Shown one piece after another: positions 43,592 through 64,000 of a DNA stretch of 64,000 nucleotides. The position numbers were made by a program, and so were the translations under genes. Below the pieces are notes generated by a model, which ran no database searches, was not told the origin of the DNA, and worked only from the letters and a program-made list of their open reading frames with translations. The DNA is from a virus, in IMG/VR virus record IMGVR_UViG_3300010885_049703, positions 32,001 through 96,000 of that record; one strand, 5' to 3'. Position 1 is the stretch's first letter. Every line of letters begins with the position of its first letter.

Positions 43592-43595
43592 AATT

Positions 43596-45473
43596 TTATT
43601 TGCTTTCTTTGAAGTCGGCATCAACTACTGTTTCATCTGCTGATTGTGCGGACTCAGATGCTTTGGCTTTGGCCTCAAAGATTGGAGCAGCAGCCTTGAA
43701 CAATTCATCCAGACCGGATTTAATTGCTTCCAGGTCATTGCCTTGAACAGCAGTTTCAACCGCAGTGATTGCAGTGTTGACAGAAGTTTTTTGTTCCTCA
43801 GTTAACTGTGATTCAACTTCTTTCATTTCAGCGCGAATCATATGTAACTGTGATTCGGCCTGGTTGCGTGTTTCAATAGATTCACGTTGTTTCTTATCGG
43901 CCTCGGCATTGAGTTCAGCATCCTTGATCATCTGTTCAACTTCGGCATCACTGAGGCCAGAGTTGGATTTGATAGTGATTTTGTTTTCTTTGCCGGTATT
44001 TTTGTCTTTAGCTGATACATGCATGATACCATTGGCATCAATGTCCAATGTTACTTCAATTTGTGGCTGACCACGACGTGCTGGTGCAATGCCTTCAAGG
44101 TTGAATTCGCCCAATGATTTGTTGTACTGAAACAGTTCACGCTCGCCCTGTGCAACTTTGATAGTCACGGCAGGTTGATTGTCGTCGGCAGTGGAGAACA
44201 CTTGGCTATGCTTGGTGGGAATAGTGGTGTTCTTGTTGATCAACTTAGTGAACACTCCACCTTGTGTTTCAATACCAAGGCTCAAGGGAGTTACGTCAAG
44301 CAACAATACGTCTTTGCGCTCGCCGCCCAACACAGCACCTTGCAAGGCAGCACCTGCAGCCACTGCTTCGTCAGGATTGACATCATGTCGTGGCGCTTTG
44401 CCAAACAGTTTCTCAACTGCTTCTTGTACCTTGGGCATACGTGTTTGACCGCCAACAAGTATAACTTCATCTATGTCTGCAGCAGTGACTTTGGCATCGG
44501 TCAGGGCCTGACGGCATGGCGCCAAACTGCGTTGAATCAATTCTTCCACAAGGCTTTCTAACTTGGCACGAGTCATCTTGACATTTAAATGCTTGGGACC
44601 TGTGGCATCAGCAGTGATATAAGGCAAGTTTACATCAGTTTGTGCGCTGTTTGACAATTCAATCTTTGTGCGTTCAGCAGCTTCTTTGAGACGCTGCAGG
44701 GCCATCACATCGGCCTTGAGATCAACCCCGGACTCTTTCTTGAACTCGTCAACAAGATGATCCATGATACGTTGGTCAAAGTCCTCACCACCTAGGAATG
44801 TGTCACCATTGGTTGACAACACTTCAATTTGTTTGTCGCCGTCAACGTGGGCAATCTCAATAATTGAGACGTCAAATGTACCACCACCTAGGTCATACAC
44901 AGCAATCTTGCGATCGCGTTTGTCTTGTTTGTCCACGCCATATGCCAAGGCCGCAGCAGTTGGCTCGTTGATAATGCGCAACACTTCCAGGCCTGCAATC
45001 TTACCTGCATCCTTGGTGGCTTGACGTTGACTATCGTTGAAGTAAGCCGGCACAGTGATAACTGCCTGTGTGACTTCATGGCCAAGATAATCTTCTGCAG
45101 TCTTTTTCATCTTACGCAATACTTCGGCTGAAATTTGCGGAGGTGCTAGTTCTCGATCGTTAGCGCGAACCCAAGCATCGCCATTGCTGGCTTCCATGAT
45201 TTGATATGGCATGAGGTCAATGTCTTTTTGCACAGCTTGTTCTTTGAACTTACGTCCAATCAAACGCTTGGCTGCATAGATTGTATTCTTGGGGTTTGTC
45301 ACTGCCTGACGTTTTGCCGGTGCGCCAACTAACACTTCGGCGTCGGTGTAGGCAACAATTGATGGCGTAGTACGTGCGCCTTCTGAATTTTCAATTACTT
45401 TTGGGGTTCCATTTTCTACAACAGCCACGCATGAGTTGGTGGTTCCGAGGTCAATACCTATAATTGTGCTCAT
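43596..45473 (-). CDS. dnaK: chaperone DnaK (Hsp70)
   Basis: [42 protein letters not shown]; AAGGAG SD. Confidence 0.98.
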
Positions 45474-45563
45474 TGTTTTCTCCTTTGAAGTAAGCAAGAT
45501 TTTGCAAATGCCCTGTCGGCACATTTACAAGTAATTATTTATTTCACATTATAACACACTTAG

Positions 45564-45638
45564 TGCCCCTGCTCCGAGTCGAACGGAGATAATTTTCCCT
45601 TTTGAGGAGAACGACTTTACCAATTTGTCCACAGGGGC
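45564..45638 (-). tRNA. tRNA-Leu(CAA), short variable loop, no encoded CCA
   Basis: GCCCCTG/CAGGGGC acceptor stem, loop CTCAAAA, T-arm CTCCG-TTCGACT-CGGAG; followed by CTA. Confidence 0.85.
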
Positions 45639-45642
45639 ATGT

Positions 45643-45879
45643 TTAGTTTGACCAGGTCAGCATGAATAGAGTACGATGTTCATTCCAGCGGAATGCCACA
45701 CCTATGTTATACAATATTTCACAGTCATCATACGCCCAAACACTGTATCTTGGGCCTATGCATTGTTTGAGCCACTCTTCAATAGAATACACTCCCTGGA
45801 TCCAATCTACTTGGGCATTGCCAAGTACGGGCCAAGGAACAGTTGCATGAAATTGGAATCTATGCCAGTCCACTAACAT
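45643..45879 (-). CDS. small phage protein (F.L.W family)
   Basis: ends AFRWNEHRTLFMLTWSN; TAAATA 5 nt upstream. Confidence 0.6.
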   Translation of the reverse strand: MLVDWHRFQFHATVPWPVLGNAQVDWIQGVYSIEEWLKQCIGPRYSVWAYDDCEILYNIGVAFRWNEHRTLFMLTWSN

Positions 45880-45902
45880 GCAAATATTTATTTTATATCC
45901 CC

Positions 45903-46151
45903 TTATTTTTTGTTCATTCTTTCACGTTCAAGTTGTTCTTGATAGAGTTTTTCCTCTGCGTCATCCTCGGCTAAAATTCCAGCACGGCGCTCTTCGTCGG
46001 TTTCTATCTGATCTACATTGGCATTTAATTTTTTGATATCTTCTTCAATTGCATGCTGGTCACTGTGATCCCCGCGTAGTTTGGACATTTCTCGTTCATA
46101 CCGTGTTACAAGGCTAGGTTTAACATGTTGCCTTATCCAATCAGTTGGCAT
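45903..46151 (-). CDS. hypothetical acidic coiled-coil protein
   Basis: start at MPTDWIR after AGGA SD, downstream of tRNA-Trp. Confidence 0.55.
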   Translation of the reverse strand: MPTDWIRQHVKPSLVTRYEREMSKLRGDHSDQHAIEEDIKKLNANVDQIETDEERRAGILAEDDAEEKLYQEQLERERMNKK

Positions 46152-46169
46152 GACAATTTCCTGGTTATT

Positions 46170-46243
46170 TGGCTCCGATGGACAGAATCGAACTGCCACT
46201 CACGGTTTTGGAGACCGTTGCACTGCCATTATACTACACCGGA
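46170..46243 (-). tRNA. tRNA-Trp(CCA)
   Basis: cloverleaf, loop CTCCAAA, encoded CCA. Confidence 0.92.
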
Positions 46244-46932
46244 ATTACTATAGTTCTTACAACGTAATCAGCAAACTCTTGATGCGCGGACTCGTCAAAA
46301 TGCATACGGCCGGTGGGAGTAAATTTTTGTTCAATGCACCAATCTAAAAATACCGGGGCAATCCAATCATACCTTTTTAAAACTGCTGCGTCATCAATGG
46401 GCCAGAAACTGTCTATGTTGATAACTTTGATGCCGGCATAAATTGCAAGTTGATTTAATGTGACAATATTTTTTATTTTGTTTAATCTTCCCACTACAGG
46501 ATCAGTGGCAAACACTATCCAGTGATTTAGATATTTCTGATATAACTTGCGTTGATCAATCCATTGGTAGCGTTTTTTAACGACTTTCTTGCGTCCTTCT
46601 CTCACAACATCATCTGGTTCAGTGCGCAACCATCCTTCTAGTCCTGCTGCCAACGGCAACCATTGTTGGTTTTCTTGCGAATAGATTTCTGAACGATCAC
46701 ATCCAGTCAAGCAGGCAATTACAATGTCATTGCTGGATAGGGATGACAGTTCTCTTTCAAAAATCCTAAACATAGCATCATTGCTACCTCCGGCAATGGC
46801 GTGATTTAGGGGCCGATATCCTAGACTCTGTGCAATTTTCACAGCATAGCTGTGAGAGTAGTTGTATTGATCGTCGCTGCTGATTTCCGAACCAGCAGCA
46901 TGACTACAACCCAATATCAATGCCTGTTTCAT
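46234..46932 (-). CDS. SGNH hydrolase-like protein
   Basis: LGCSHAAG, GGSND, HFDESAH; paralog of 51278..51985. Confidence 0.6.
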   Translation of the reverse strand: MKQALILGCSHAAGSEISSDDQYNYSHSYAVKIAQSLGYRPLNHAIAGGSNDAMFRIFERELSSLSSNDIVIACLTGCDRSEIYSQENQQWLPLAAGLEGWLRTEPDDVVREGRKKVVKKRYQWIDQRKLYQKYLNHWIVFATDPVVGRLNKIKNIVTLNQLAIYAGIKVINIDSFWPIDDAAVLKRYDWIAPVFLDWCIEQKFTPTGRMHFDESAHQEFADYVVRTIVIPV

Positions 46933-46958
46933 ATGCCTACTTAGCTGTGAACCAGATA

Positions 46959-47126
46959 TTAATGCACTGCTTCTTTTGTATTCACTTCACACTCAACTAC
47001 CCAATTATTGAATTGTGTGAATGTACTTACTTCTACCCCGAGTCCCACAGCTTCGTTGACAAAATGTTGCAACAACGAATTATACAACTCATCGGGCATT
47101 GTATCTTTGGCAAATTTAATTTTCAT
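46959..47126 (-). CDS. small hypothetical protein (55 aa)
   Basis: read from sequence: MKIKFAKDTMPDELYNSLLQHFVNEAVGLG..; AGGGA SD. Confidence 0.55.
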   Translation of the reverse strand: MKIKFAKDTMPDELYNSLLQHFVNEAVGLGVEVSTFTQFNNWVVECEVNTKEAVH

Positions 47127-47151
47127 TGTCAATCCCTAGATCTAAAGTAAA

Positions 47152-47356
47152 ATGCTCTGCGTCCCGCGGCGGTAATTATACTGTGTCAGTAAACATGTCC
47201 TCTTTCAAGGGGAATACCTCTACAGCCTCCACCCGCTCCACGACCGGGACCGTTCTCGCATTGCCAGCGCCGTTTCGGTTGGAACGGTACCACCCGTGCT
47301 TGTCATAGCACTTCTCATCCTCCGGGTCAGAGTATCCAGTGACGCTGGAACGGCGC
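47152..47356 (-). ncRNA. unidentified GC-rich multi-pseudoknot RNA abutting the tRNA-Ser 3' end
   Basis: several long-range complementary segments (see findings); no credible CDS. Confidence 0.65.
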
Positions 47357-47444
47357 TGGCGGAGAGTATAGGATTCGAACCTATGCGCCACTTTCGCAAC
47401 GACAGTTTAGCAAACTGCTGCCTTGACCACTCGGCCAACTCTCC
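47357..47444 (-). tRNA. tRNA-Ser(GCU)
   Basis: long variable arm, loop TTGCTAA, encoded GCCA. Confidence 0.93.
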
Positions 47445-47565
47445 ATAAATCTAGTTGCTCTACCATATTGAAACACACTATACAACAGGTTTAGGTCTGC
47501 TTCTATATCCTGTCACGGCGTAGTATGAAGTTATCTCTAGACCTTGGCCGTAATGTGCTTTAATA

Positions 47566-47640
47566 TGGTACACGGTAGGGGAATCGAACCCCTCTTCCAT
47601 CCGTGAAAGGGATGTGTCCTAACCGATAGACGAACCGTGC
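47566..47640 (-). tRNA. tRNA-Glu(UUC)
   Basis: cloverleaf, loop CTTTCAC, encoded CCA. Confidence 0.93.
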
Positions 47641-53104: not shown

Positions 53105-53277
53105 TCTTTACCCCAATTGATTTTCAACCATACACGCTCGTGTATATAATGTGCCAGGGTCATAAAAATATTGATTATAATTGCACCACTTAATCCGGTC
53201 CATGCTGCAGTAATCAATGTTGCCACCACACGCCAAGTGATTGCTCTTACTATTGTTCTTTTGTGTAATTCCATCAA
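53080..53277 (-). CDS. DUF2061-like small membrane protein
   Basis: RTIVRAITWR...HYIHERVW.KI.WG; tandem paralog. Confidence 0.75.
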   Translation of the reverse strand: MMELHKRTIVRAITWRVVATLITAAWTGLSGAIIINIFMTLAHYIHERVWLKINWGKEWKQNNEQ

Positions 53278-54143
53278 GTTCCCCAGGCGTTGCGCCAGAT
53301 ATCTACTTGTAATCTAGGACTGTATCTATAGCCACGCTTCATTGCCAACTCAGCTACCTGCGGCACATTGAAGTTGTATAAGTCAGCAACGCCGCCCGTG
53401 GGCATCAAATACACAGGACCACCAAAGCCAGCTTTGCGGAATTGATACACCGCTTCGTCAACATCTTTCAAATCATCATCAGTGGACACAACAAACTTGA
53501 GATAGGTCATGCCCACCATCTCATAACTTTTTACAACTTCGGGACGTATAGCATCTTCCCAACGCTCTCCCGAGCATGGTAGTTTTGCACTGACACTGAA
53601 AGTCAAACGATCGTAATCTCTGCCGTGTCTAGTGAATTCTTCAAACAGGTATTCTCTAACATCTTCATGCAAAAACTGAGTACCATTGGTTTCAAATGTT
53701 ATGTTACGCAAGCCTTGTTGGCGACATTTTTCGATCAGCTTGGGATATTCAACTTGATAGCCCAGCAATGGTTCACCGCCTGTGATCACCAGGTGAACAT
53801 CGTCACTGATGTTGTCTGGACTCCATTTGTTCTTGGGAATCATGCCATGCATACGATCAGCGATTTCATCCAAGGTCATAAACGGTGACAGATGTTTGAA
53901 TGCCGGATGCCATGACGCATAACTGTCACAGCCTGTTCGTGCCAGCGGCAAGTCGTTGTAGGTTTTGTAAAGATGTACGTCGGCAGCAATTTCGTCGGGT
54001 TCAGTGGTCTTCTCACCACGCGGTAAGCCAAATCCACGACACTGAAAGTTACACCCAAATGTACGCATGAAAACGCTGGGCACACCAGCCCAACGTCCTT
54101 CACCTTGTAGACTATAAAATATTTCAGCTATTTTAAGTTGCAT
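53274..54143 (-). CDS. queE: 7-carboxy-7-deazaguanine synthase
   Basis: EIFYSLQGEG..G.PSVFMRTFGCNFQC..(insert)..CDS, ITGGEPL, ETNG, PRLQ. Confidence 0.9.
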   Translation of the reverse strand: MQLKIAEIFYSLQGEGRWAGVPSVFMRTFGCNFQCRGFGLPRGEKTTEPDEIAADVHLYKTYNDLPLARTGCDSYASWHPAFKHLSPFMTLDEIADRMHGMIPKNKWSPDNISDDVHLVITGGEPLLGYQVEYPKLIEKCRQQGLRNITFETNGTQFLHEDVREYLFEEFTRHGRDYDRLTFSVSAKLPCSGERWEDAIRPEVVKSYEMVGMTYLKFVVSTDDDLKDVDEAVYQFRKAGFGGPVYLMPTGGVADLYNFNVPQVAELAMKRGYRYSPRLQVDIWRNAWGT

Positions 54144-54167
54144 GATATTCCTTGAAAGTTTTGTGCG

Positions 54168-54196
54168 AGTATAGCACAAGAAATAAAATTAGTCAA
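54168..54196 (-). promoter_or_regulatory. sigma70-type promoter of queE
   Basis: TTGACT-17 nt-TATACT. Confidence 0.65.
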
Positions 54197-54563
54197 TGTC
54201 TTTTAAGAAAGGTTTTAATTTGGGAGGTTTCCAACCTTCAGGTTTGAGAACTTTGCCATCCTTGCGCTTGTTGACCTTACCAGTTTCTGAATCAATTTTG
54301 GCAAAGTTTGTTTGCATGACTTCGTTCCAGGCAGCTTCGGCATCTACTCCCATGCTGTGCAATGCTCCGGTGGTCACTACCAACAGATCAATCAATGCAT
54401 CCAATTGTTCCACTCGGTCTGCTGCCTGAACAGCTTCTTTGAGTTCATGCCATTCTTCTTTGATGAGATTCACATACATACGATACTGCTTGGGTTTGAA
54501 TTCATCTACTGTTTGATCACATGCCAGCATGAATCGTTTTTGATCTTCAAAAATATTTGTCAT
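54189..54563 (-). CDS. MazG-like (PRA-PH-like) NTP pyrophosphohydrolase
   Basis: LIKEEWHEL..DALID..EV..NFAK..KDGKVLKP. Confidence 0.85.
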   Translation of the reverse strand: MTNIFEDQKRFMLACDQTVDEFKPKQYRMYVNLIKEEWHELKEAVQAADRVEQLDALIDLLVVTTGALHSMGVDAEAAWNEVMQTNFAKIDSETGKVNKRKDGKVLKPEGWKPPKLKPFLKDID

Positions 54564-55108
54564 TTAGTCCACCATTGTTCCCAGGGAAATACAATCCATT
54601 GCGGATCTGCCGCTTTATTAATGTTACATGCGGTATAATTAACATCAAGTTTGCTTTCACTTGATTCGTTGTCAACTAGTGTGGCCACACGTACATTTGT
54701 GCCCCATATGTGATTCCACCTATCATGATTGGGCAAGCAACCGCTGGGCCAATCTTGTTGAATCCAGTTCAGTGTGGCACCGGTGTCGTTGATATCATCA
54801 ACTATGAGTATGTTTTTGGCGTTGATACTATAATCAAATTCTGCCAACAACTGTTCATCCTTGGGAACGTATCCAAACGCATCTTCGGCCATCCATAAAT
54901 TGCTTTCCGATTCATTGCCATCGCGCAGACTCACTTTGAGTGTCTCCATGCGCACTCCCAGGTATTGACTGATGAGATTGGCCGGAACAAGTCCACCACG
55001 AGTAATACCCACTACATAGTCAGGTCGCCAGCTGTCGTTGTGAATCTGTCTGATAATCTCCTGTGTGAAGTTTTCTACATCACGCCAGGTGTAGTATACC
55101 CGTTTCAT
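54560..55108 (-). CDS. purine phosphoribosyltransferase (Gpt-like type I PRTase)
   Basis: VGITRGGLVPA, ILIVDDINDTGAT (PRPP loop), WIVFPWE. Confidence 0.88.
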   Translation of the reverse strand: MKRVYYTWRDVENFTQEIIRQIHNDSWRPDYVVGITRGGLVPANLISQYLGVRMETLKVSLRDGNESESNLWMAEDAFGYVPKDEQLLAEFDYSINAKNILIVDDINDTGATLNWIQQDWPSGCLPNHDRWNHIWGTNVRVATLVDNESSESKLDVNYTACNINKAADPQWIVFPWEQWWTK

Positions 55109-55893
55109 AGTTTCCTTGCTTTGATTAATAAATGCCAACCCAGATATTCTTTCACTGCATCACGCATGGTATCACTCATGGCAGCAAACCAAGGTTCCAA
55201 TTCATAGCGACCTTCGCGGTATGCTGGTATGTTATACATAAAACAGTGATCCTGCCTAATACGTTCTATTTCAAACTGACCATTGAGCATCTGATAAATT
55301 TCACCTCTAGTAAATGCTTCGGCGTATGGACATTCAGCCTGTGCTTCAAACTGATCCAGCCCCTTTTGAATCATTGCATACTTCCAGGAGTTTTTAGCAT
55401 ACACCATAAAACGGAACTCGCCCCCAGGTGCCACTAAACTGTGAATCTCTTGAATGTGTTGTGCAATATTGGGTGAATGATGTATGACACCATAACTGTA
55501 CACAAGATCAAACTTGCCAAGATTTTCTATTGCTGTTGCATCATCTGGATCAAGTAAATTGATATTGCGGAAATCGCCATGTAAATCTAGAGTTTGGAAT
55601 CGGTCACGACAGATGTTTAAACTAGCATCACTGATATCAATGCCTGTGTATTCAGCACCGTGACGCACAAACTGTTCAGCGTCAGTTCCAATACCACACC
55701 CAATCTCCAACACCCGCTTGCCTTGCCAGCGATGAAACTGTGCAAAGTCAAGTATGTGTGGCTCTACACGATAACGACGTGCAGTGACTTCTTCAAAGTA
55801 CTCTACCGAACCCAAGGGTCGTTGACTGTGACGAATGTTGCAGGGTTGGCGATCCCAATAGGATTTTATTTTTTCTTCAAGTTGTTGAGACAT
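55105..55893 (-). CDS. class I SAM-dependent methyltransferase
   Basis: VLEIGCGIG, GIDIS, FDLVYSYGVIHH. Confidence 0.9.
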   Translation of the reverse strand: MSQQLEEKIKSYWDRQPCNIRHSQRPLGSVEYFEEVTARRYRVEPHILDFAQFHRWQGKRVLEIGCGIGTDAEQFVRHGAEYTGIDISDASLNICRDRFQTLDLHGDFRNINLLDPDDATAIENLGKFDLVYSYGVIHHSPNIAQHIQEIHSLVAPGGEFRFMVYAKNSWKYAMIQKGLDQFEAQAECPYAEAFTRGEIYQMLNGQFEIERIRQDHCFMYNIPAYREGRYELEPWFAAMSDTMRDAVKEYLGWHLLIKARKL

Positions 55894-56743
55894 TAACTGA
55901 TCCTGATGACATATTGACTTCTCTTTTAGTTGTAGTCATTTGCTTGTTGATGTCGTTAGCTTCAAGTTTTTCCCAGGGATTCTGTTGGTTGATCTTGACA
56001 TTCTCCCAAAAAGTAGTATCTATGCCCTTTGATTTCAAATAGCCGGCAATTTTTTCAGTGTCTGACATTCTATGATTAAACCATTTGACACTATGAAAAT
56101 CTTCGGGACTGTCAGGCTTACCCTCCAGCATTGGACGATTCTTAAATGTTTCATCATGGTTGTTGCCGGTGAGATCGTACCGATCATGCTCAACCCACAC
56201 TGGAATACGCTCCAGGATGTCCACCATGTATGCGATTTGACTCATCCAAGCGTCACTGATCTGATGTGGACTCATATATCCAAACATATCAAGCCAGTCT
56301 CTGGGAATAATTGGAAAAATACTGTAAGGATGTTCTCTATGAGTATGCACAGCCAATAACTTGAATTGACCTTGATACTTCATAATTTCTACATTCCAGC
56401 CTTGACTTTGCATCACAGCATCATCATTCCAGAACATTAACCATGCGGCATCGCTGTTTTTAGCTAGTTCTGTAACGTACTCATTAAGTCTAATATACCC
56501 CATGGGTTCAAAGCTCATTGCAGTATAATGTACACCTCGATCATCTAACAATGGTTGTAAAGATTCTTCCCAGTGTTTGATACCAACTTCGTCATCGTCA
56601 TCAAAGCCCAGGATAATTTGTATTGTTGATAGGTCTTGAACACGATTAATTAAACTCATTATACTGCGTGTCAGCGTCATTGTGCGCCCGCGAGTGGGCA
56701 ACAAAACTGCTATGTCATACTCATATGAATGTTGTTTTTCCAT
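55877..56743 (-). CDS. GT-A (family 2-like) glycosyltransferase
   Basis: IAVLLPTRGR, GFDDDD, WNDD. Confidence 0.7.
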   Translation of the reverse strand: MEKQHSYEYDIAVLLPTRGRTMTLTRSIMSLINRVQDLSTIQIILGFDDDDEVGIKHWEESLQPLLDDRGVHYTAMSFEPMGYIRLNEYVTELAKNSDAAWLMFWNDDAVMQSQGWNVEIMKYQGQFKLLAVHTHREHPYSIFPIIPRDWLDMFGYMSPHQISDAWMSQIAYMVDILERIPVWVEHDRYDLTGNNHDETFKNRPMLEGKPDSPEDFHSVKWFNHRMSDTEKIAGYLKSKGIDTTFWENVKINQQNPWEKLEANDINKQMTTTKREVNMSSGSVNVSTT

Positions 56744-56757
56744 TTATTCCTCAAATA

Positions 56758-57255
56758 TTATGCAAATAAGTCTTCGTTCCAATGTCTATGTCCCTCGCGG
56801 AAAGCCATGTTACTTTGTGTTTCACGTACTTCTACTCGATAACACCACAAACGTTCTGCTTCACCAGGTCCCCACATATCTGGAATATACACTCCATTGA
56901 CATACTTGTAAAGCATATCGGCTAGCCCCTCGCAGCCTAATCGTGGAAGAATGGTGAGTTTGGCCATGTTACGCTGTTGTAACAGTTTAAATGTCTCCAA
57001 TTCTGGATCATCTTGTGCAACTAACAAGGTGTGATCAAACTGATCTTCTAAAATCTTCTTTAGTTCTTTGAGTCCACCGTAGTCAGCAGCCCAATTGCGC
57101 ACATCTAAGTTATCGGTACCAAAGTAAAACTTCATGCTGAATGCATAGCCATGTATTAGATTGCAGTGGCTATCAGCACGCCATTGCCGGTAGGCACAGG
57201 GAAAGGCATTGTGGTATTCTTTGGTACTAGTATAATTGTATGTAACAGATTGCAT
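56758..57255 (-). CDS. queD: 6-carboxytetrahydropterin synthase-like
   Basis: HCNLIHGY, DYGGLK, FDH, VEVRET. Confidence 0.85.
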   Translation of the reverse strand: MQSVTYNYTSTKEYHNAFPCAYRQWRADSHCNLIHGYAFSMKFYFGTDNLDVRNWAADYGGLKELKKILEDQFDHTLLVAQDDPELETFKLLQQRNMAKLTILPRLGCEGLADMLYKYVNGVYIPDMWGPGEAERLWCYRVEVRETQSNMAFREGHRHWNEDLFA

Positions 57256-57258
57256 TGT

Positions 57259-57326
57259 TTTCTCCTATAAGTTAATATAGGCTTGCAGAGTTTGTATAGC
57301 GGGATGAATGCTCTAAAGGCCGCTGT
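57259..57326 (-). promoter_or_regulatory. preQ1-I-like riboswitch candidate with SD-sequestering hairpin
   Basis: AGCGG-loop(..CAUC)-CCGCU-AUACAAAC-UCUG, then CCUAUA/UAUAGG hairpin over AGGAG. Confidence 0.55.
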
Positions 57327-57335
57327 TGAAAACTA

Positions 57336-58025
57336 TTATATATGGTTTTCTCGGACTTTGTCTACATTATAGGTAAACACAGTTAGATATTTTTTATAAT
57401 GATGTTCGCTGCTACTGCAATGGAGTTGAGTACGATCCCAAGAAATCACATCGCCAAGATTCCAATCAACGATTTGTTCTATAGTCAGTCCGTGTAAATC
57501 TTCTATGGGCATATAGCTCAGATAGTCATGATATGTTTTTTCATCAAATTGATGATCGTTTATATTAACCACTTGACTATAATCAGCAACAGTACCCTGA
57601 GCTAATCCCAAAACATTTGATGCACGATCAATGGATTGTTTGAGATCAAGTCTTGAAAACTTAGTACTGGCACCAAACCAATAGTTATCAAAAAACACGG
57701 TTGATGCTTTTGGGGAGAAATCCAACGGTATTAAAAAAGATGGTCCCAAACATTCAGCAGACCACTCACGATGTGAATCCACATGTACTTTTTGATTATA
57801 CGAACGTTGATAGAAGAAAATTAATTCATCGACTGCCCAATTAAAATTTGCCAACTTGTTGATAATATCAGTAACTATTTGTTGTGGCCATTCGTCAACA
57901 TCCCAGTGAGGATGCTTGCTTGACATAGTGGGACGATGATCCCAAGGACCATCTTCCTGATCAAAATAATTTTTAAGACTAGCAATATCTTCCGGGGATA
58001 CTATATCCTTGTACACTTTAGCCAT
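57336..58025 (-). CDS. 2OG-Fe(II) oxygenase-like protein
   Basis: HVD...WDRTQLHCS...K facial-triad pattern. Confidence 0.55.
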   Translation of the reverse strand: MAKVYKDIVSPEDIASLKNYFDQEDGPWDHRPTMSSKHPHWDVDEWPQQIVTDIINKLANFNWAVDELIFFYQRSYNQKVHVDSHREWSAECLGPSFLIPLDFSPKASTVFFDNYWFGASTKFSRLDLKQSIDRASNVLGLAQGTVADYSQVVNINDHQFDEKTYHDYLSYMPIEDLHGLTIEQIVDWNLGDVISWDRTQLHCSSSEHHYKKYLTVFTYNVDKVRENHI

Positions 58026-58449
58026 TGGGATTTTTATAACCTTCTCGTTTATAATTGGCCTGTCCAGCGATTACACCACGTACCCCGCCAACAGGATCTT
58101 CGCAGTCTCCATGACGTCGGGGTATCAGATGTACATGTGGATACATCACAGTTTGCCCGGCAGCCTCGCCAAAGTTAATACCAATGTTAAATCCATCACA
58201 TTCACCTTGCTCAACCAATTTGTTGCCATGGGTTGTAGCCGAATACACTGCCTCATTGATAGTACTCACGGTATTATATCTCGGAACAAATAGTAAATGT
58301 CCTGGAGTAACTGGATAGCGATCACGATATACTACTACATGAAAATCTTCCCATACAACATCATCCCATGGTGCAATACTTTGTTTTTGAGCTTGTTCTA
58401 AATTATTCACACCAGTCATCGCTTTCCATGTAAACAGATGCTTGTTCAC
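58018..58449 (-). CDS. HIT family nucleotide hydrolase
   Basis: YPVTPGHLL, AGQTVMYPHVHLIPRR; start uncertain. Confidence 0.9.
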   Translation of the reverse strand: MNKHLFTWKAMTGVNNLEQAQKQSIAPWDDVVWEDFHVVVYRDRYPVTPGHLLFVPRYNTVSTINEAVYSATTHGNKLVEQGECDGFNIGINFGEAAGQTVMYPHVHLIPRRHGDCEDPVGGVRGVIAGQANYKREGYKNPNG

Positions 58450-58630
58450 GAGCAGATTCTATGCTTTCTGCAACAACAGTGAGAGTAGCAACACCGTGTT
58501 TGATATGAATGTCAAACGGCACACGGCCCATGGGCAACCAACCATCGTCAACTCGCAAACGAACTTTGTAGCTACGCATTTGTTGTGCTCGGCTTATGAT
58601 TTCTTGAGTATAGTCGGCTGCTGTTTTCAT
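58403..58630 (-). CDS. hypothetical protein
   Basis: small ORF in operon. Confidence 0.55.
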   Translation of the reverse strand: MKTAADYTQEIISRAQQMRSYKVRLRVDDGWLPMGRVPFDIHIKHGVATLTVVAESIESAREQASVYMESDDWCE

Positions 58631-58631
58631 A

Positions 58632-58826
58632 TCAGTCCCGCGGCATTGTTGCTGCTTCTTTGATCAGCTCTACAAGTTCTTCAACTGTTGATACTATGAT
58701 TTTAGTATTCTTCCATTCGTCGTTGTCATCACGTCCGCCAACTTCAATCATAAATCCGTTGTCGTACATGTTGATAGTAAATGCTTCATTTACTTTAGTG
58801 AGTTTGTCACTGATTGTTGTTGCCAT
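58632..58826 (-). CDS. hypothetical protein
   Basis: AAGGAG SD; YDNGFMIEVGGRD. Confidence 0.65.
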   Translation of the reverse strand: MATTISDKLTKVNEAFTINMYDNGFMIEVGGRDDNDEWKNTKIIVSTVEELVELIKEAATMPRD

Positions 58827-58849
58827 GTTCTCTCCTTGATTAGTTGAAT

Positions 58850-59182
58850 TTACTTTTTTTTACCAAATAGTGATTTTGACTTCTTTGCTAATTCTTGCTG
58901 CCGCTTTTTTTCTGCTGCTTCTTTAGCATCGGCTGCTTTTTTGGCTGATTCTCGTTCTCGTTCAATACGAATTGCATCTTCTTGACCTTGTGCAATCATT
59001 TTTTTAAACAGCAGAATTACTCGATCCTTTTCTCGCTCTGAAATTATCTTGACAGCTTCTACTTTTCCTTCGTAACTTTTGGCACTGTCTAAGAAACCTT
59101 CGGGTACTGCTAGTTTCTTTTTCTTGGGTTTTAATGCATCTAACTTCTTTTTAAACTCTTCTGGGGTGTCTTCTGTGGACAT
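58850..59182 (-). CDS. Lys/Glu-rich hypothetical protein
   Basis: AGGA SD; highly charged. Confidence 0.6.
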   Translation of the reverse strand: MSTEDTPEEFKKKLDALKPKKKKLAVPEGFLDSAKSYEGKVEAVKIISEREKDRVILLFKKMIAQGQEDAIRIERERESAKKAADAKEAAEKKRQQELAKKSKSLFGKKK

Positions 59183-59255: not shown

Positions 59256-60023
59256 TCATCTAGGCGCAAACTCTTGTTGTAGTTTGATATTGTCCATGAA
59301 CTCTTTCTTGACACTGGGGTCATCTTTGAATGCACCTGTTAGCACAGTGGTTTGTGTCAATGAACTATGTGCCATGATGCCGCGATTCTCACAGCAACCA
59401 TGTGTGGCTTGTATGTACACACCTACGTTTTTACTGCCAGTGGCCTTCATGATCTCTCTAGCGATATCATTGCACAACTCTTCTTGTAGTGTGCCACGGC
59501 GAGCACACCACTGAGCAATGCGAGTATACTTGCTCAAACCAATGAGCTTTTGAGCAGCAATGATTCCAATGTATGCAACTCCGCTGACTGGTTGATGATG
59601 GTGACTGCACATACTACGAAGCTCGCTGCGAACAACCAGCATGCCTTCATAACGGTCTGTTGTGTCGTTTGGAAATGCTGTTGCATCTGGAGCAGGTTCG
59701 TATCTTCCTGCCATGATTTCGTTAAAGTACATCTTGGCTAATCTACGTGCTGTGCCTTGACTGTTAGGATCTGTTTCGCGATCAATCAGCAATCGATCTA
59801 GCACAGTTTCAAATGCTTCTTCGGCTTCGTCAATTAGTCTAGATTTCTGATCGTCATTAACATAACCACTGATGTTATCACCGGCCCAGAAACGTTTCTT
59901 ATCATGTTTCATTTGGGTACGTATTGCATCAGCTAGATATGATTCTTGATAATCTTTATCACCTGCTGTTGTATTTGACGTCGGTTCGTCATCGCCGTCT
60001 ACATACATTTTTTCATATACCAT
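59256..60023 (-). CDS. folE: GTP cyclohydrolase I
   Basis: SMCSHH, IGLSK, LQE, HGCCENRG. Confidence 0.93.
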   Translation of the reverse strand: MVYEKMYVDGDDEPTSNTTAGDKDYQESYLADAIRTQMKHDKKRFWAGDNISGYVNDDQKSRLIDEAEEAFETVLDRLLIDRETDPNSQGTARRLAKMYFNEIMAGRYEPAPDATAFPNDTTDRYEGMLVVRSELRSMCSHHHQPVSGVAYIGIIAAQKLIGLSKYTRIAQWCARRGTLQEELCNDIAREIMKATGSKNVGVYIQATHGCCENRGIMAHSSLTQTTVLTGAFKDDPSVKKEFMDNIKLQQEFAPR

Positions 60024-60079: not shown

Positions 60080-61231
60080 TCACTTGTCAAGCCCAAGTTC
60101 TTCTTCTAGTTGGCGAACTGGAGAACTCCAGTCATTGGTGAAGTTTCTTATGTACTGAATGTTATCTAAATCTTTCTGGGTTTGTAAAACAATTTCTTCA
60201 TTGGCAAAGTGTATGACCAATCCTCGACGTAAGGCAGTTTCCAAAAGTTCCTGGCGATAGTCATTGTCATCGGGTAAACTGAAAATACTAAACATGATGA
60301 GATGATTGACATTGCTGGTGTGAATCATGCTTTTCAAATGTGCATGATTTAGTCCTTCGTTCTCACCGTGTTGATAGGGAAACTTGTATCCTTTCTTGGT
60401 ACAATAATGTCGAACTGCCAAGGTTTGGAAATGCAGATCAATGTTGCGTGTTTTGACACCATCGTACTCCATGTAGCACACTACAATATCTTTGGATTCA
60501 TCAATAGATACCACTGCTTCTGAACTTTGATCGTGCAGTGGTCTAAAATATGCACCAGGCCATTTGCGGTGTGGCTGACCATCTCTAACCAGCAATCTGA
60601 TATCAATACTGACACGAGTCTTATCAGTGCGGTTGGGAATATTGCCATGAATGTGTTCTTGGAAGAACAAATGCGCCTGACCAGGTTGCAATGTAATTGG
60701 CCAACTGTTGTCAGCACAAGTAGAGTCTAGGTATTCATAGCTCCAGTTTTCGCGTTTGGCCTGGCGTGTTATTTCCCTACTCTTATCCAGATCCATGATC
60801 TGCATTGAGTTAGATTCAAAACATGGAGTGAACGGCATCCACACAGTTCTAAGTCCAAGTCCGTTGCCTACCCACCGGCCTTGATGGAAGATCAACACAG
60901 CACCAAACTTGTCTTGATTGGGTATCAAGATTCGTAAGTTACCAAATTTTTGAATTAACACATCGGTGCCCAGTTGTGGAACAACATGCTCAGATACAAT
61001 TTCATCAAAGTGTTGATAAAAATCAGTTTTCAGCAAGGCATGACTCACAGTGTTTTGAACACGTTGTATGTCATGCGGTGGAATAACTTCATGTAGTGTA
61101 TCCAGTGATGTGGCATTGGGATACAATTTTTGAATCTCACCTAAAATGATAGCCGGCATGGGATGCTGGCCTAGATCATAATCTAAGGTTTGATTATCAA
61201 ATGCTGCTTGGTCTTGAGTCAATTGTGTCAT
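60080..61231 (-). CDS. Fe(II)/2OG enzyme (PhyH-like) with HxG motif, fused to a C-terminal domain resembling 'sporadic carbohydrate cluster' proteins
   Basis: FHQGRW..VWMP..HIHGN.PN..RVSIDIR; C-terminal RHYC..FSIFSLP..IHFANE. Confidence 0.65.
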   Translation of the reverse strand: MTQLTQDQAAFDNQTLDYDLGQHPMPAIILGEIQKLYPNATSLDTLHEVIPPHDIQRVQNTVSHALLKTDFYQHFDEIVSEHVVPQLGTDVLIQKFGNLRILIPNQDKFGAVLIFHQGRWVGNGLGLRTVWMPFTPCFESNSMQIMDLDKSREITRQAKRENWSYEYLDSTCADNSWPITLQPGQAHLFFQEHIHGNIPNRTDKTRVSIDIRLLVRDGQPHRKWPGAYFRPLHDQSSEAVVSIDESKDIVVCYMEYDGVKTRNIDLHFQTLAVRHYCTKKGYKFPYQHGENEGLNHAHLKSMIHTSNVNHLIMFSIFSLPDDNDYRQELLETALRRGLVIHFANEEIVLQTQKDLDNIQYIRNFTNDWSSPVRQLEEELGLDK

Positions 61232-63003
61232 AGTGTTTCCATCCTATTTTTAATAAGTCCTTTTCTTCTTGCAGTGTAAAAATCCCCAGTTGGACTTGAA
61301 CTTCTGGCAGTGAATTTATACATAGTAGATTCATGAGCTCCTGTTATTATATTATAACTGGTTGTCAAAGTCAACGGATACTGTTGATCAAAGTCAACAA
61401 TAAACCCGCGTTGTAATTCAATCAAATCTTGGTCAACTTCTGTCAACATTGACAGAGCCGACAACGCCAACTCGGCAGCGTCTTGTTGATGCTGGTACAT
61501 GAATTCATAACTGATGCTATGAATTGCATGCCCTCCCACTCCATCAATCACTCCTTGTGTGAGATACCGATGTGTTTTGCTACGCACAGTATGATAATGT
61601 TCTTGAAATACTGTACTAGTGGATATCAATTTAAATAACTGATCATACAACGTTTGATAGGCAATATTTTTAACTTGTCGAGCATATCTTGCAATAATTT
61701 GTGTATATCCCATGGCATGCCAATGTATGATCATCCAGGCATAGACATATCCTTCAATGATATCGTCTGTGGTCATAGTGCTGGTGCCTGCAACGATCTC
61801 AGTTTGCTCGGCCACCGCATCTTGATCACGACTATCAAGATTCATATAATCTTTGACCCATATGGTTTTTAATCCATACTGTTGTCGACTCTGTGCAGTG
61901 GCCAATTCACTATTCTCTAACATCTGAGCGAACCATATGTCTATGGAATTATGTTGCCCCAACTCCAATAACTCACAAAGTCCTTGAATCCACGTATGCT
62001 TGGTTTCTAATGGTAATCCGATGATTACTTCGGTGTATGTCGGCACTTGATATTGTTCACTGAGCTGCATGACTTCTCTGATATTGTTGACATCAAGATT
62101 TTTTCTTTTGATAGCCTCTAACGTAGATTCATTCATACTCTGTACGCTGACAGTAACACCACGCCCATATGGTCCTAGGGTCTTGGCAATTTCAAATATT
62201 GCATTGGTACTATTTTTGGCATACTGTATGTTGATGACTTCTATTGCGGAGTTTTCAGCTCGTTGTCGCATAAGCCTGCTGATCTCTAAATCTCTGTCAA
62301 CGAAAATTCCAAAATTAGCATCTGCACAAAAAATATATGCCACTTGATGTGAAGCAGCCCACTCCAACTCACTGTCAACTCTTTCAAGCCCAAAGCGTTT
62401 TATTTTACTGTATGTCACTCCGCCCCAGTCACAAAAGGTACAAGCATATGGACAACCACGGTTAGTTTCCAAGGTCATTGCCCAAACTGCATCAGGGTTT
62501 GCTGATATTATATTGTCAAACACTCCTGTGAGATACGGACTTGGTATATCTAAGTCTTGTAATCGATCAGCAGGATATAACGCATCCACGGTGTTGTTGT
62601 GTAATATACTTCTCAGTATCTTTACAAAACTTTCTTCACCTTCGGCCAGTGCAATAGCATCAATAAACTGATGTGCATACATTTGCGAGGAACTCTGAGG
62701 CCCACCAAATATTATCACACAATCAGGAAATTTAATTTTTACTTGTCGGGCCAACTCCAAACAATACTGTTCGTTCCACATGTAGCAGCTGAAGCCACAC
62801 AGCACAGGATCATCAAGCTCACAAATGACTTGATCAATCGGGTCTCGGCGAAAGTACAATCCAGCAAGTTGAAAATTATCAACTATGTCTGTGAACTGAC
62901 CGGCATAACTCCAAAGACATCCGGCACTGTAAGGTAACCAATAATTAGGCTTGTTCTGAAACTCTACAACATATTGCGGTTGAAACAAGTATACATTCTT
63001 CAC
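61228..63003 (-). CDS. B12-binding-type (class B) radical SAM protein
   Basis: GFSCYMWN, FGGP, EGEE, ETNRGCPYACTFCDWG, DANFG; GTG start coupled to the upstream stop. Confidence 0.87.
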   Translation of the reverse strand: MKNVYLFQPQYVVEFQNKPNYWLPYSAGCLWSYAGQFTDIVDNFQLAGLYFRRDPIDQVICELDDPVLCGFSCYMWNEQYCLELARQVKIKFPDCVIIFGGPQSSSQMYAHQFIDAIALAEGEESFVKILRSILHNNTVDALYPADRLQDLDIPSPYLTGVFDNIISANPDAVWAMTLETNRGCPYACTFCDWGGVTYSKIKRFGLERVDSELEWAASHQVAYIFCADANFGIFVDRDLEISRLMRQRAENSAIEVINIQYAKNSTNAIFEIAKTLGPYGRGVTVSVQSMNESTLEAIKRKNLDVNNIREVMQLSEQYQVPTYTEVIIGLPLETKHTWIQGLCELLELGQHNSIDIWFAQMLENSELATAQSRQQYGLKTIWVKDYMNLDSRDQDAVAEQTEIVAGTSTMTTDDIIEGYVYAWMIIHWHAMGYTQIIARYARQVKNIAYQTLYDQLFKLISTSTVFQEHYHTVRSKTHRYLTQGVIDGVGGHAIHSISYEFMYQHQQDAAELALSALSMLTEVDQDLIELQRGFIVDFDQQYPLTLTTSYNIITGAHESTMYKFTARSSSPTGDFYTARRKGLIKNRMETL

Positions 63004-63518
63004 TGCTGCAGCCCAGTGATTTGCATAGTATACCTGGAATGATTGCCAAAGTTTCCGGCTATGTGCGTGGCAGTTCCAGTCCAGGACACCCAATCACCGG
63101 CTCTCCAGTCATCAAAGCATTGACCATCACAGTGAAAGATTTGTCCCATTTGCCAGTTGGTCAAAAATATCAACACTCTTGTGATAGTTTCAATATCTGT
63201 AACATTGTGATTCTTGCTGTATCTTCTATACAAATCACCATGCAATGGTTGTATAAGTCCGGGCTGCATGTGATGAACAACTATAAATTTTTCTTTGAGT
63301 TCAGGCCACGGATCTTGGTGCCAAAAGTTATTGGTGTTGATGTCATCGGCAACTTCCAGTGAAATCATATCCCAATAGCGATCACGATCAGCTACATCAC
63401 TCCAGACATAGATATCTTCGCCACGACTGGGACTGTCAGACATATCCTTGCGTTGATAAACCAACTGATCTAATGTCTGTTGATTCCAAATTGGATCAAT
63501 ATGTCCGTGTCTGATCAT
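63000..63518 (-). CDS. 2OG-Fe(II) oxygenase-like protein
   Basis: PLHGD...THIAGN...RYTMQITG. Confidence 0.7.
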   Translation of the reverse strand: MIRHGHIDPIWNQQTLDQLVYQRKDMSDSPSRGEDIYVWSDVADRDRYWDMISLEVADDINTNNFWHQDPWPELKEKFIVVHHMQPGLIQPLHGDLYRRYSKNHNVTDIETITRVLIFLTNWQMGQIFHCDGQCFDDWRAGDWVSWTGTATHIAGNFGNHSRYTMQITGLQQ

Positions 63519-64000
63519 TTTATCTCTAAGTTATTGCGCCAAATTTCTATGGTACGATCTAGACCCTGTGAAAGATCAACTGTTGGCTGCCAGCCCAGCA
63601 ACTGGTGTATGAGATTGTTATTGCTATTCAACCAATAGATCTCACCAGGACGACGAGGTTTTGAATCCCAATGCATGGTTCCTGACCAGCCAATTTTATC
63701 GGCAATCATTGCAGCGTAGTTATCAATGCGTATGGGATCGTTTGGTCCCACAGTCATCACAATACCAGTGCCAACAACATCAGGATTTTCAATCACACGC
63801 ACCCAGGCTTCTAATAAGTCAGTAATAAAAATAAAATTACGATAAGGAGTTCGATAACCAAGGTAGACATGATCAGGATTTTTCAACATTTGTGTTATAA
63901 TTTGTTCAGTGACAAAGAAATCATTGTCACGACGGCCATAGCTATTAGTTTGACGTATAGCAGTCCAAGGAAACTCATGAGATCGATGCATGTACTCAAG
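63515..64000 (-). CDS. NAD-dependent epimerase/dehydratase (5' truncated by window)
   Basis: RQTNSYG, RNFIFITD, RPGEI, LGWQP..LSQGL. Confidence 0.8.
   Translation of the reverse strand, partial: LEYMHRSHEFPWTAIRQTNSYGRRDNDFFVTEQIITQMLKNPDHVYLGYRTPYRNFIFITDLLEAWVRVIENPDVVGTGIVMTVGPNDPIRIDNYAAMIADKIGWSGTMHWDSKPRRPGEIYWLNSNNNLIHQLLGWQPTVDLSQGLDRTIEIWRNNLEIK

What the first reader, a model, noticed from the sequence alone, without database searches (positions are those of the whole stretch)
60080..61231. Fe(II)/2OG enzyme with a halogenase-type H-x-G motif
Seen: FHQGRW (codons at 60878-60886) where HxD/E is expected, with the distal His (HIHGN) and the 2OG-binding Arg (RVSIDIR) retained, plus a fused second domain. 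Known: replacing the carboxylate ligand with Gly or Ala opens the halide site in SyrB2, WelO5, BesD and the nucleotide halogenase AdaV. Inference: a viral radical halogenase acting on a sugar or nucleotide, encoded between a B12-type radical SAM and folE.
Basis: partly seen in the sequence, partly recalled or inferred. Interest (0 to 1): 0.75.

Follow-up and report, generated by a model that had tools for sequence, protein, structure and literature searches.

The report
Phage sugar oxygenase missing iron carboxylate
A large marine phage carries a two-domain iron/2-oxoglutarate enzyme whose usual aspartate iron ligand is replaced by glycine, always together with a glutamine four residues before the second histidine, so it is more likely an oxygenase with a relocated third ligand than a halogenase, and only an assay can decide.

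Summary
ORF 60080-61231 (-) encodes 383 aa with H116-Q117-G118 (codons 60878-60886), H195 and R206-x-S-x-D-x-R212. A profile alignment to PtlH and the within-family alignment both place G118 where relatives carry the iron-binding Asp.

The protein fuses two NCBIfam "sporadic carbohydrate cluster" families: TIGR04324 (PhyH-like 2OG oxygenase) and TIGR04323 (resolvase-like fold). The host contig is a T4-superfamily jumbo-type phage. At least 279 IMG/VR viral contigs and some bacterial polysaccharide loci carry H-x-G relatives. No GenBank phage record does.

Asp and Gly forms are interleaved in the family tree. Gly118 always comes with Gln191, at distal His minus 4 (246 of 246 sequences). Asp forms have Gln there in only 5 of 90. 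HygX, a solved sugar-modifying 2OG enzyme, has H-x-G...E-x3-H, with its acidic ligand moved to this same position.

My best reading (0.5) is an H-x-G...Q-x3-H site with a relocated, neutral third ligand, acting on a sugar or nucleotide-sugar. Halogenase remains a live rival (about 0.2). The model's coordinates could not be read, so this geometry is inferred.

This scan reached the same Gly+Gln reading earlier on other phage DNA (e1-5370145, e1-5370154).

The parts
60080..61231 (-). Whole gene (383 aa plus stop): TIGR04324-like 2OG/Fe(II) oxygenase domain fused to a TIGR04323 domain
   Evidence: AF2 model with mean pLDDT 97.2
60521..61231 (-). N-terminal PhyH-like double-stranded beta-helix oxygenase domain (about residues 1-237)
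   Evidence: TIGR04324 match E 4.6e-28 over residues 35-233. VIA-align: PtlH Z 14.2, EvdMO1 12.5, AviO1 12.3, CurA Hal 11.1, HygX 10.2, SyrB2 10.2. Foldseek.
60878..60886 (-). H116-Q117-G118: proximal His ligand, with Gly in the place of the facial-triad Asp
60647..60661 (-). Q191-E-H-I-H195: Gln at distal His minus 4 (coupled to Gly118) and the distal His ligand
   Evidence: HygX E-X3-H precedent; aligns with Ser at His minus 4 of CytC3
60596..60616 (-). R206-V-S-I-D-I-R212: strand carrying the presumed 2OG C5-carboxylate Arg/Ser
   Evidence: R206 and S208 are at least 99% conserved in both Asp and Gly forms. R206 aligns with the Arg of PhyH FRKAIS and PtlH MRMSMD.
60083..60496 (-). C-terminal TIGR04323 (LIC12192-family) domain, residues about 246-383, with a resolvase-like alpha/beta fold and unknown role
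   Evidence: TIGR04323 62.9 bits against cutoff 55. VIA-align Z 11.7 to a serine-recombinase catalytic domain, 4bqq. Atlas nearest clusters are LIC12192-family.
61228..63093 (-). Upstream B12-binding radical SAM gene (KedN5-like C-methyltransferase subfamily); its stop overlaps the target's start (ATGA)
   Evidence: adjacent to the target in 14-16 related viral loci
59256..60023 (-). Downstream GTP cyclohydrolase I gene (folE)
   Evidence: Pfam PF01227 E 2.9e-40; next to the target in 17 related loci
63515..64000 (-). NAD-dependent sugar epimerase/4,6-dehydratase gene (runs off the window), part of the conserved sugar module

Best explanation
The gene encodes an active Fe(II)/2-oxoglutarate oxygenase of the PhyH-like fold. 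It belongs to the carbohydrate-cluster family TIGR04324 and is fused to its usual neighbour TIGR04323. Its metal site is H116 plus H195, with the canonical Asp replaced by Gly118. The vacated position is served by Gln191, four residues before the distal His. This gives an H-x-G...Q-x3-H site: the arrangement solved in the sugar-modifying enzyme HygX (H-x-G...E-x3-H), but with a neutral amide where HygX has a carboxylate. R206 and S208 hold 2OG. The enzyme most likely oxidises a C-H bond (hydroxylation or oxidative cyclisation) on a sugar, nucleotide-sugar or glycan. That substrate would be made by the co-transcribed SDR dehydratase/epimerase, the B12 radical SAM methyltransferase and glycosyltransferase genes. 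Shown: the sequence features, the fold, the family, the Gly/Gln coupling, purifying selection and the contexts. Inferred: that Gln191 contacts the iron or its sixth ligand, the reaction type and the substrate.
For: Gly118 lies in the Asp column of the family and of PtlH. Gln191 is present in 246 of 246 Gly forms and 5 of 90 Asp forms, and no Gly form has Glu or anything else there. It is the only position common to all Gly-type representative clusters. Asp and Gly forms are interleaved in the tree, with up to 8 changes and at least 2 forced. All 3 well-supported independent pairs change Gln191 in the same direction. The D+Q state exists (5 sequences) while G without Q does not, which is what one expects if Gln must be in place before Asp can be lost. 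HygX has H-X-G...E-X3-H with the acidic ligand relocated to the same His-minus-4 position (PMC13374393), and it shares the fold (Z 10.2). The Asp-to-Gly loss of bulk is roughly matched by the Pro/Ser/Ala-to-Gln gain, leaving little new cavity for a halide (inference). The 2OG-binding Arg/Ser are retained. Selection is strongly purifying. Carbohydrate context: the family names; a conserved module of DegT, SDR, B12-rSAM and the target in about 17 viral loci; and a Roseivirga chromosomal locus with GDP-mannose 4,6-dehydratase, epimerases and glycosyltransferases.
Against: No coordinates of the model could be read, so the Gln191-to-iron distance was never measured. DSSP on the model shows residues 191-194 as non-strand, so the orientation of the side chain is uncertain. 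Gln is strictly preferred over Glu, which is odd for a simple ligand relocation. It would also suit an amide N-H hydrogen bond to a bound anion. Apart from AspH, I know of no characterised natural H-x-G/A 2OG enzyme that is not a halogenase (my own knowledge, and biased by targeted mining). The coupling rests on only about 3-8 independent transitions, and the sign test is underpowered (p 0.25). No substrate is known for any member of TIGR04324 or TIGR04323, and no paper mentions either family.
Confidence: 0.5

Rival explanations
1. Radical halogenase. Gly118 opens a coordination site for chloride or bromide. The amide N-H of Gln191 hydrogen-bonds the bound halide or oxo, much as the second-sphere Asn does in the BesD/HalA family. 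The enzyme then chlorinates a sugar or nucleotide, possibly cryptically.
For: H-x-G sits at the ligand position. Halogenases and hydroxylases are likewise interleaved in the BesD/HalA family, where D144G goes with a second-sphere amide, Asn224 (bioRxiv 10.1101/2024.09.19.613983). Gln191 aligns with the Ser at His minus 4 of the halogenase CytC3; from my memory of the SyrB2 structure paper, the equivalent Ser231 lines the chloride pocket. CytC3 is the best, though non-significant, PDB sequence match of the single protein (E 0.77). CurA Hal, SyrB2 and WelO5 share the fold (Z 9.7-11.1). Gln and never Glu is selected. Marine hosts offer ample chloride.
Against: A Gln, as long as the iron-binding Glu of HygX, occupies the position next to the vacant site, whereas the PhyH-type halogenase CytC3 has a small Ser there. 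H-x-G does not guarantee halogenation: AspH and HalA I151N/N224V only hydroxylate. I know of no halogenated sugar in bacterial surface polysaccharides, where the family sits (my own knowledge). H-T-G forms also occur in what looks like a non-marine Alphaproteobacteria MAG (isolate name MFD09212; habitat not checked). Hydroxylases such as PtlH match the fold better than halogenases do.
Confidence: 0.2
2. Two-histidine site completed by the substrate. With the Asp gone, a carboxylate, phosphate or hydroxyl of the substrate (for example a nonulosonic acid or an NDP-sugar) binds iron directly. Gln191 orients that group.
For: AspH works with only two protein ligands (PMC10947486). The neighbouring SDR best matches LegB-type 4,6-dehydratases of nonulosonic acid pathways, though weakly. 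A neutral hydrogen-bonding Gln rather than Glu would suit an anionic substrate group.
Against: There is no direct evidence. The Asp forms of the same family sit in similar clusters and presumably take similar substrates without such binding.
Confidence: 0.15
3. The oxygenase domain has lost metal binding and serves only as a binding or scaffolding module for the fused TIGR04323 domain.
For: The canonical triad is incomplete.
Against: Both His residues, the 2OG Arg/Ser and many pocket residues are invariant across hundreds of sequences. Selection is strongly purifying. The specific Gly/Gln coupling argues for a maintained active site.
Confidence: 0.05

Closest known systems
TIGR04324 'sporadic carbohydrate cluster 2OG-Fe(II) oxygenase' plus TIGR04323 'LIC12192 family sporadic carbohydrate cluster protein' (NCBIfam)
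   Same: Both domains match (E 4.6e-28 and 2.6e-17). JGI names many homologues as this fusion. Bacterial relatives lie in polysaccharide loci.
   Different: The oxygenase part scores 98.4 bits against a cutoff of 150. Here the two families are one polypeptide. The ligand Asp found in most representatives (H-[ST]-D) is Gly, with Gln191 added. Neither family has a known function, and no paper mentions either accession or the family name.
HygX, hygromycin B orthoester synthase (PDB 4XCB and others)
   Same: It is a sugar-modifying Fe/2OG enzyme with a double-stranded beta-helix. It has H-X-G in place of H-X-D/E, and its third ligand has moved to distal His minus 4 (PMC13374393). Fold match Z 10.2 over 207 residues.
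   Different: HygX has Glu at His minus 4 where this protein has Gln. Structure-based identity is only 8%, and HygX was not detectable by sequence search. HygX has no TIGR04323 domain. Its substrate is an aminoglycoside.
PtlH, 1-deoxypentalenic acid 11-beta-hydroxylase (PDB 2RDN), PhyH family
   Same: It is the best structural match (Z 14.2, rmsd 3.5, 206 residues) and the best profile match (E 6.8e-7). The H-x-D, distal His and Arg motifs align.
   Different: PtlH has a canonical H-Q-D triad with Ala at His minus 4. Its substrate is a terpenoid, and it has a single domain.
PhyH-fold Fe/2OG halogenases SyrB2, CytC3 and CurA Hal, and the free-substrate halogenases WelO5, BesD/HalA and AdaV/AdeV
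   Same: A small residue (Ala or Gly) replaces the carboxylate in H-x-D, the 2OG Arg is kept, and the fold is shared (Z 9.7-11.1). D/G switching occurs among close relatives, as in the BesD/HalA family.
   Different: Sequence similarity is not significant (E 0.02-0.09 with the profile). The residue at His minus 4 is Ser in CytC3 but a long Gln here. There is no carrier protein partner, and no halide evidence.
AspH (human aspartate/asparagine beta-hydroxylase)
   Same: It is a natural 2OG oxygenase that binds iron with two His only and still hydroxylates (PMC10947486).
   Different: It belongs to a different subfamily, takes a protein substrate, and has no coupled Gln that I know of.
Methylphosphonate synthase MPnS (2-His-1-Gln iron site)
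   Same: It is a precedent for a Gln amide as the third iron ligand in a marine microbial non-haem iron enzyme (my own knowledge; not found in the paper library).
   Different: It is a cupin of the HEPD family, not 2OG-dependent. Its Gln sits at the same position as the Glu it replaces rather than being relocated.

Membership tests
Fe(II)/2OG oxygenase superfamily, PhyH-like branch | Double-stranded beta-helix fold like PhyH/PtlH | tested here: met
   AF2 pLDDT 97.2; PtlH Z 14.2, PHYHD1 12.2, PhyH 11.3; Foldseek E 1e-8 to 1e-6; profile against PDB gives PtlH E 6.8e-7 and PhyH 0.003
Fe(II)/2OG oxygenase superfamily, PhyH-like branch | H-x-D/E...H facial triad | tested here: not met
   H116 and H195 are present, but the carboxylate position is Gly118
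Fe(II)/2OG oxygenase superfamily, PhyH-like branch | Basic residue binding the 2OG C5 carboxylate about 10 residues after the distal His | tested here: met
   R206 (His+11) and S208 are at least 99% conserved and align with the Arg of PhyH and PtlH
TIGR04324 SpoChoClust_2 | HMM score above the curated cutoff (150 bits) | tested here: not met
   98.4 bits, E 4.6e-28, residues 35-233 of a 248-position model. This makes it a divergent relative rather than a member at NCBI's threshold.
TIGR04323 SpoChoClust_1 (LIC12192 family) | HMM score above the curated cutoff (55 bits) | tested here: met
   62.9 bits, residues 253-361
Fe(II)/2OG radical halogenases | Ala or Gly in place of the carboxylate ligand | tested here: met
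   Gly118 in the Asp column
Fe(II)/2OG radical halogenases | An open, halide-sized pocket at the vacated coordination site | tested here: inconclusive
   The model's coordinates are not readable. Gln191 sits at the position that holds the iron ligand in HygX and a small Ser in CytC3, which argues against an open pocket but was not measured.
Fe(II)/2OG radical halogenases | Halide-dependent turnover and a halogenated product | not testable with these tools
   Needs a biochemical assay
Fe(II)/2OG radical halogenases | Sequence membership in a characterised halogenase family (SyrB2/CytC3, WelO5, BesD, AdaV) | tested here: not met
   Only sub-threshold local matches: CytC3 E 0.022 and SyrB2 E 0.085 with the family profile
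HygX-type relocated triad (H-X-G...E-X3-H) | Gly at the canonical carboxylate position | tested here: met
   motif as given in PMC13374393
HygX-type relocated triad (H-X-G...E-X3-H) | Acidic ligand at distal His minus 4 | tested here: not met
   That position is Gln191, never Glu, in 246 Gly-type sequences
Serine recombinase/resolvase (C-terminal domain) | Catalytic-domain fold | tested here: met
   Z 11.7 (4bqq), 10.7 (3bvp) and 9.3 (Tn3, Sin) over residues about 246-368
Serine recombinase/resolvase (C-terminal domain) | Sequence family membership (Pfam Resolvase) and DNA-binding parts | tested here: not met
   No Pfam hit. There is no downstream DNA-binding domain, as the protein ends at residue 383. 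So this is a fold resemblance only.

The most novel reading that the evidence does not exclude
The H-Q-G/Gln191 clade is a new, very abundant family of Fe(II)/2OG halogenases. It would be carried by marine cyanophages, jumbo phages and some bacteria, and would chlorinate or brominate a sugar or nucleotide-sugar, possibly cryptically. The Gln amide would hold the halide. As far as I know, that would be the first viral Fe/2OG halogenase and the first enzymatic sugar C-H halogenation in glycan biosynthesis.
Probability: 0.2. Interest if true: 0.85.

Novelty: new variant of a known kind. Interest (0 to 1): 0.6.

Why it matters
Either outcome is new enzymology. If Gln191 binds iron, this would be, as far as I know, the first natural 2OG oxygenase clade with a 2-His-1-Gln site. 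It would also give a naturally replicated experiment, with Asp and Gly/Gln forms interleaved in one family, on how the third ligand tunes ferryl chemistry. If the site binds halide instead, it would be a new halogenase family of biocatalytic interest. The gene is among the commoner unexplained genes of uncultured marine myophages: at least 279 IMG/VR contigs carry it and no cultured phage does. Its function therefore bears on what sugars or glycans these phages make during infection. It also attaches a testable hypothesis to two NCBIfam families (TIGR04323 and TIGR04324) for which I found no assigned function.

Tried and rejected
- Pfam and PHROGs give nothing for the target.
- tblastn of P0001 and of the cyanophage-type homologue P0065 against 50,697 GenBank phage records found no match, and blastn of the 5-kb region found none either.
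- I searched for a compensating Asp or Glu. D76 is 96% conserved in the oversampled H-Q-G clade but present in only 56% of Gly-type representatives. E192 is variable. D210 is common to both Asp and Gly forms. None qualifies.
- I asked whether the 95-aa gene always upstream in cyanophage contexts is a carrier protein for a SyrB2-style halogenase. It has no Pfam match and no obvious phosphopantetheine site. Another upstream gene is NifU-like by eye (GGACxxC motif; not run against Pfam).
- The independent-pairs test of the Gly/Gln coupling found only 3 well-supported pairs. All were concordant, but p is 0.25.
- HygX could not be aligned by sequence, so the equivalence of Gln191 to the HygX Glu rests on the published motif spacing.
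- Papers on TIGR04323/TIGR04324, on the PtlH ligand numbers, on SyrB2 Ser231 and on the MPnS 2-His-1-Gln site were not found in the library. McCulloch 2015 is not held. Statements on those points come from my own knowledge.
- The AF2 model's coordinates are not exposed, so no distances were measured.
- I rejected the idea that the C-terminal domain is a recombinase. Only the fold matches.

Full report
**Observation.** The minus-strand ORF at 60080-61231 is intact and encodes 383 aa. Codons 60886-60878 read CAT CAA GGC, which is H116-Q117-G118 within FHQGRWVGNG. HIHGN (H195) and RVSIDIR (R206-R212) follow. The ATG overlaps the stop of the upstream B12-binding radical SAM gene as ATGA, with an AGGA about 10 nt upstream. 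folE lies directly downstream. Every factual element of the finding is therefore confirmed.

**What the protein is.** Pfam and PHROGs give nothing. NCBIfam splits the protein into two parts. Residues 35-233 match TIGR04324, 'sporadic carbohydrate cluster 2OG-Fe(II) oxygenase' (E 4.6e-28, 98.4 bits, below the 150-bit cutoff). Residues 253-361 match TIGR04323, 'LIC12192 family sporadic carbohydrate cluster protein' (62.9 bits, above the cutoff of 55).

An AlphaFold2 model built on a 114-sequence alignment is very confident, with mean pLDDT 97.2 and pTM 0.93. Residues 2-237 form a PhyH-type double-stranded beta-helix. The best structural matches are PtlH (Z 14.2), then EvdMO1, ThoJ, AviO1, PHYHD1 and SnoK at about Z 12. 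CurA Hal scores 11.1, HygX 10.2, SyrB2 10.2 and WelO5 9.7. Residues 246-368 adopt the serine-recombinase catalytic-domain fold (Z 11.7). They have no Pfam Resolvase match and no DNA-binding extension. I treat that as a fold resemblance only.

**Is Gly118 really at the ligand position?** Yes. An exhaustive HMMER search found 396 representative relatives. Of the 118 that are at least 200 aa long, 89 have H-x-D in the same column. These are mostly H-S-D, H-T-D and H-N-D, with identical spacing (H-x-[D/G]-x-W-x-G-x-G). Another 25 have H-x-G: 13 H-Q-G, 11 H-T-G and 1 H-N-G. The family profile aligns this motif to FHQD of PtlH, and it aligns HG(N) and TRvSxDxR to the distal His and Arg strands of PtlH and PhyH. 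That these PtlH and PhyH residues are the iron and 2OG ligands is my own knowledge of those structures.

**Is the gene functional?**
- H116, Q117, G118, H195, R206, S208, D210 and R212 are invariant in 26 fused homologues of 38-67% identity.
- Against a 97%-identical homologue there are 81 synonymous and 13 non-synonymous codon differences.

**The key new fact.** On a tree of the oxygenase domain, built with the motif columns masked, the Asp and Gly forms are not two clean clades. A 36-row clade holds 23 Gly and 13 Asp forms interleaved. Parsimony needs up to 8 changes, and starred branches force at least 2.

One other position tracks the switch: residue 191, four residues before the distal His. 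Among representatives it is Gln in 92% of Gly forms and 4% of Asp forms. The single Gly-form exception there looks truncated or frameshifted in this region. Asp forms have Pro, Ser or Ala at this position. After adding a second homologue search, 336 sequences could be scored. Gly goes with Gln in 246 of 246, Asp goes with Gln in 5 of 90, and no Gly form has Glu there.

The phylogenetically strict test is underpowered. It finds 3 supported independent pairs, all concordant, with p 0.25. No acidic residue is specific to all Gly forms:
- D76 is conserved only in the H-Q-G subclade.
- E192 is variable.
- D210 is shared by both forms.

[quoted passage not shown] Here the sequence is Q191-E-H-I-H195. 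Gln therefore sits exactly at the HygX ligand position.

In the halogenase CytC3 the same position aligns with a small Ser. A side chain of Glu length at this position can thus reach the iron, whereas the aligned halogenase keeps it small. The bulk lost in Asp to Gly is about regained in Pro/Ser/Ala to Gln.

The D+Q state exists and G without Q does not. That fits an order in which Gln arrives first and Asp is then lost.

I therefore favour a relocated third ligand, an H-x-G...Q-x3-H site, over an open halide site. As far as I know (own knowledge), methylphosphonate synthase is the precedent for a 2-His-1-Gln iron site.

The strict choice of Gln over Glu keeps two rivals alive. In one, the amide hydrogen-bonds a bound halide, much as Asn224 contributes to the second-sphere network in HalA. 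In the other, it orients a metal-bound anionic group of the substrate.

H-x-G alone does not prove halogenation. AspH hydroxylates with two His ligands (PMC10947486). HalA I151N/N224V is a pure hydroxylase with its halide site intact.

**Host genome.** The window lies in a single 114,259-bp contig. It encodes T4-type baseplate wedge and hub proteins and a family-B DNA polymerase. The polymerase is closest to the jumbo phages Phosso, Atu_ph07 and 121Q at 43-50% identity. The contig also carries six tRNAs and a tmRNA, a 4,745-aa ORF, and Hsp70, PstS, a phosphate porin and AdoHcy hydrolase genes. 'Viral' is therefore correct.

**Neighbourhoods.** At least 279 IMG/VR contigs encode H-Q-G fused homologues. 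The 80 loci kept fall into two main contexts.
- Context A covers about 17 loci, including this phage and relatives down to 40% identity. The order is a 401-aa protein, DegT aminotransferase, a 172-aa protein, SDR epimerase/dehydratase, B12 radical SAM, the target, then FolE. HIT, QueD and a PRTase follow.
- Context B covers about 45 loci. These are uncultured cyanomyophages, judged by CpeT, a gp5-like hub and a gp9/10-like protein. There the target follows small genes and other 2OG oxygenases, and it precedes a structural protein of about 1,900 aa.

So the link to folE is lineage-specific. In this window the flanking genes include a QueE-like radical SAM, a xanthine/HGPRT-like PRTase, a MazG-like protein, a methyltransferase, a GT2-like glycosyltransferase, QueD and HIT. 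This agrees with earlier notes that a deazapurine island lies here. I see no evidence that the target acts on deazapurines.

Bacterial chromosomes also carry fused H-x-G forms: Roseivirga (H-Q-G), Planctomycetota (H-N-G, H-T-G) and Alphaproteobacteria (H-T-G). The Roseivirga copy sits among GDP-mannose 4,6-dehydratase, epimerases, FUT8/NodZ-like transferases and a GT2. This supports a sugar, nucleotide-sugar or glycan substrate.

No GenBank phage record has a detectable homologue.

**Verdict.** The halogenase interpretation is only partly supported. My probabilities are:
- relocated neutral-ligand oxygenase acting on a sugar: 0.5
- halogenase: 0.2
- substrate-completed two-His site: 0.15
- inactive: 0.05

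The remainder is unassigned. The same Gly+Gln reading was reached earlier in this scan on other phage genomes (e1-5370145, e1-5370154). My alignments, tree and counts were made independently. The HygX lead came from the second of those notes, and I checked it in the literature.

**Limits.** Several structural facts about SyrB2, PtlH and MPnS rest on my own knowledge.

Noticed in passing
window 40048-47640 (-): There is a cluster of six tRNA genes (Gly-tcc, Arg-tct, Leu-caa, Trp-cca, Ser-gct, Glu-ttc) plus a tmRNA flagged by ARAGORN with an asterisk (tag ANAANDEVFALAA). Hsp70/DnaK lies at 43596-45524 among them. This is unusual cargo for a phage.
   Followed up: no
window 35517-38022 (-): A phosphate-selective porin O/P gene (35517-36932) lies next to a PstS-like phosphate-binding protein gene (36997-38022) in a phage genome. 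PstS is a familiar phage auxiliary gene; the porin is less usual.
   Followed up: no
genome G000:C1:14172-28409 (+), upstream of the window: A 4,745-aa ORF lies just after the baseplate wedge and hub genes and is presumably a giant virion or fibre protein. In cyanophage relatives the target gene sits directly upstream of a similar giant ORF of about 1,900 aa.
   Followed up: partly
window 53274-59182 (-): The island holds deazapurine-type genes: a QueE-like radical SAM (weak, E 1e-13), a MazG-like protein, a xanthine/HGPRT-like PRTase, a SAM methyltransferase, a GT2-like glycosyltransferase, QueD/PTPS and HIT. No QueC was seen in the stretch examined.
   Followed up: partly
window 63000-63518 (-) and 57336-58025 (-): Two small proteins (172 and 229 aa) have no Pfam, NCBIfam or PHROG match. 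They are conserved beside the target in related phages (clusters c21 and c26). By eye they contain H-x-D...H patterns (LHGD..., HVDSH...) and may be further small oxygenases or cupins. This was not verified.
   Followed up: no
L059-L068, about 240 bp directly upstream of the target homologue (for example L060:9530-9766): In 10 cyanophage-type contigs a 78-aa protein precedes the oxygenase gene. By eye it looks NifU/Nfu C-terminal-like (GGACxxC motif); it was not run against Pfam. It may be an iron or Fe-S handling partner.
   Followed up: no
L076 (IMGVR_UViG_GVMAG-S-1059906-5): A contig labelled as a giant-virus MAG also encodes a 39%-identical fused homologue, so the family is not confined to tailed phages and bacteria.
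   Followed up: no
window 40777-42378 (-) and L002:14010-15074 (-): There are further radical SAM genes elsewhere on the contig (533 aa and 354 aa) besides the B12-type and QueE-like ones. That is at least four radical SAM enzymes in 114 kb.
   Followed up: no
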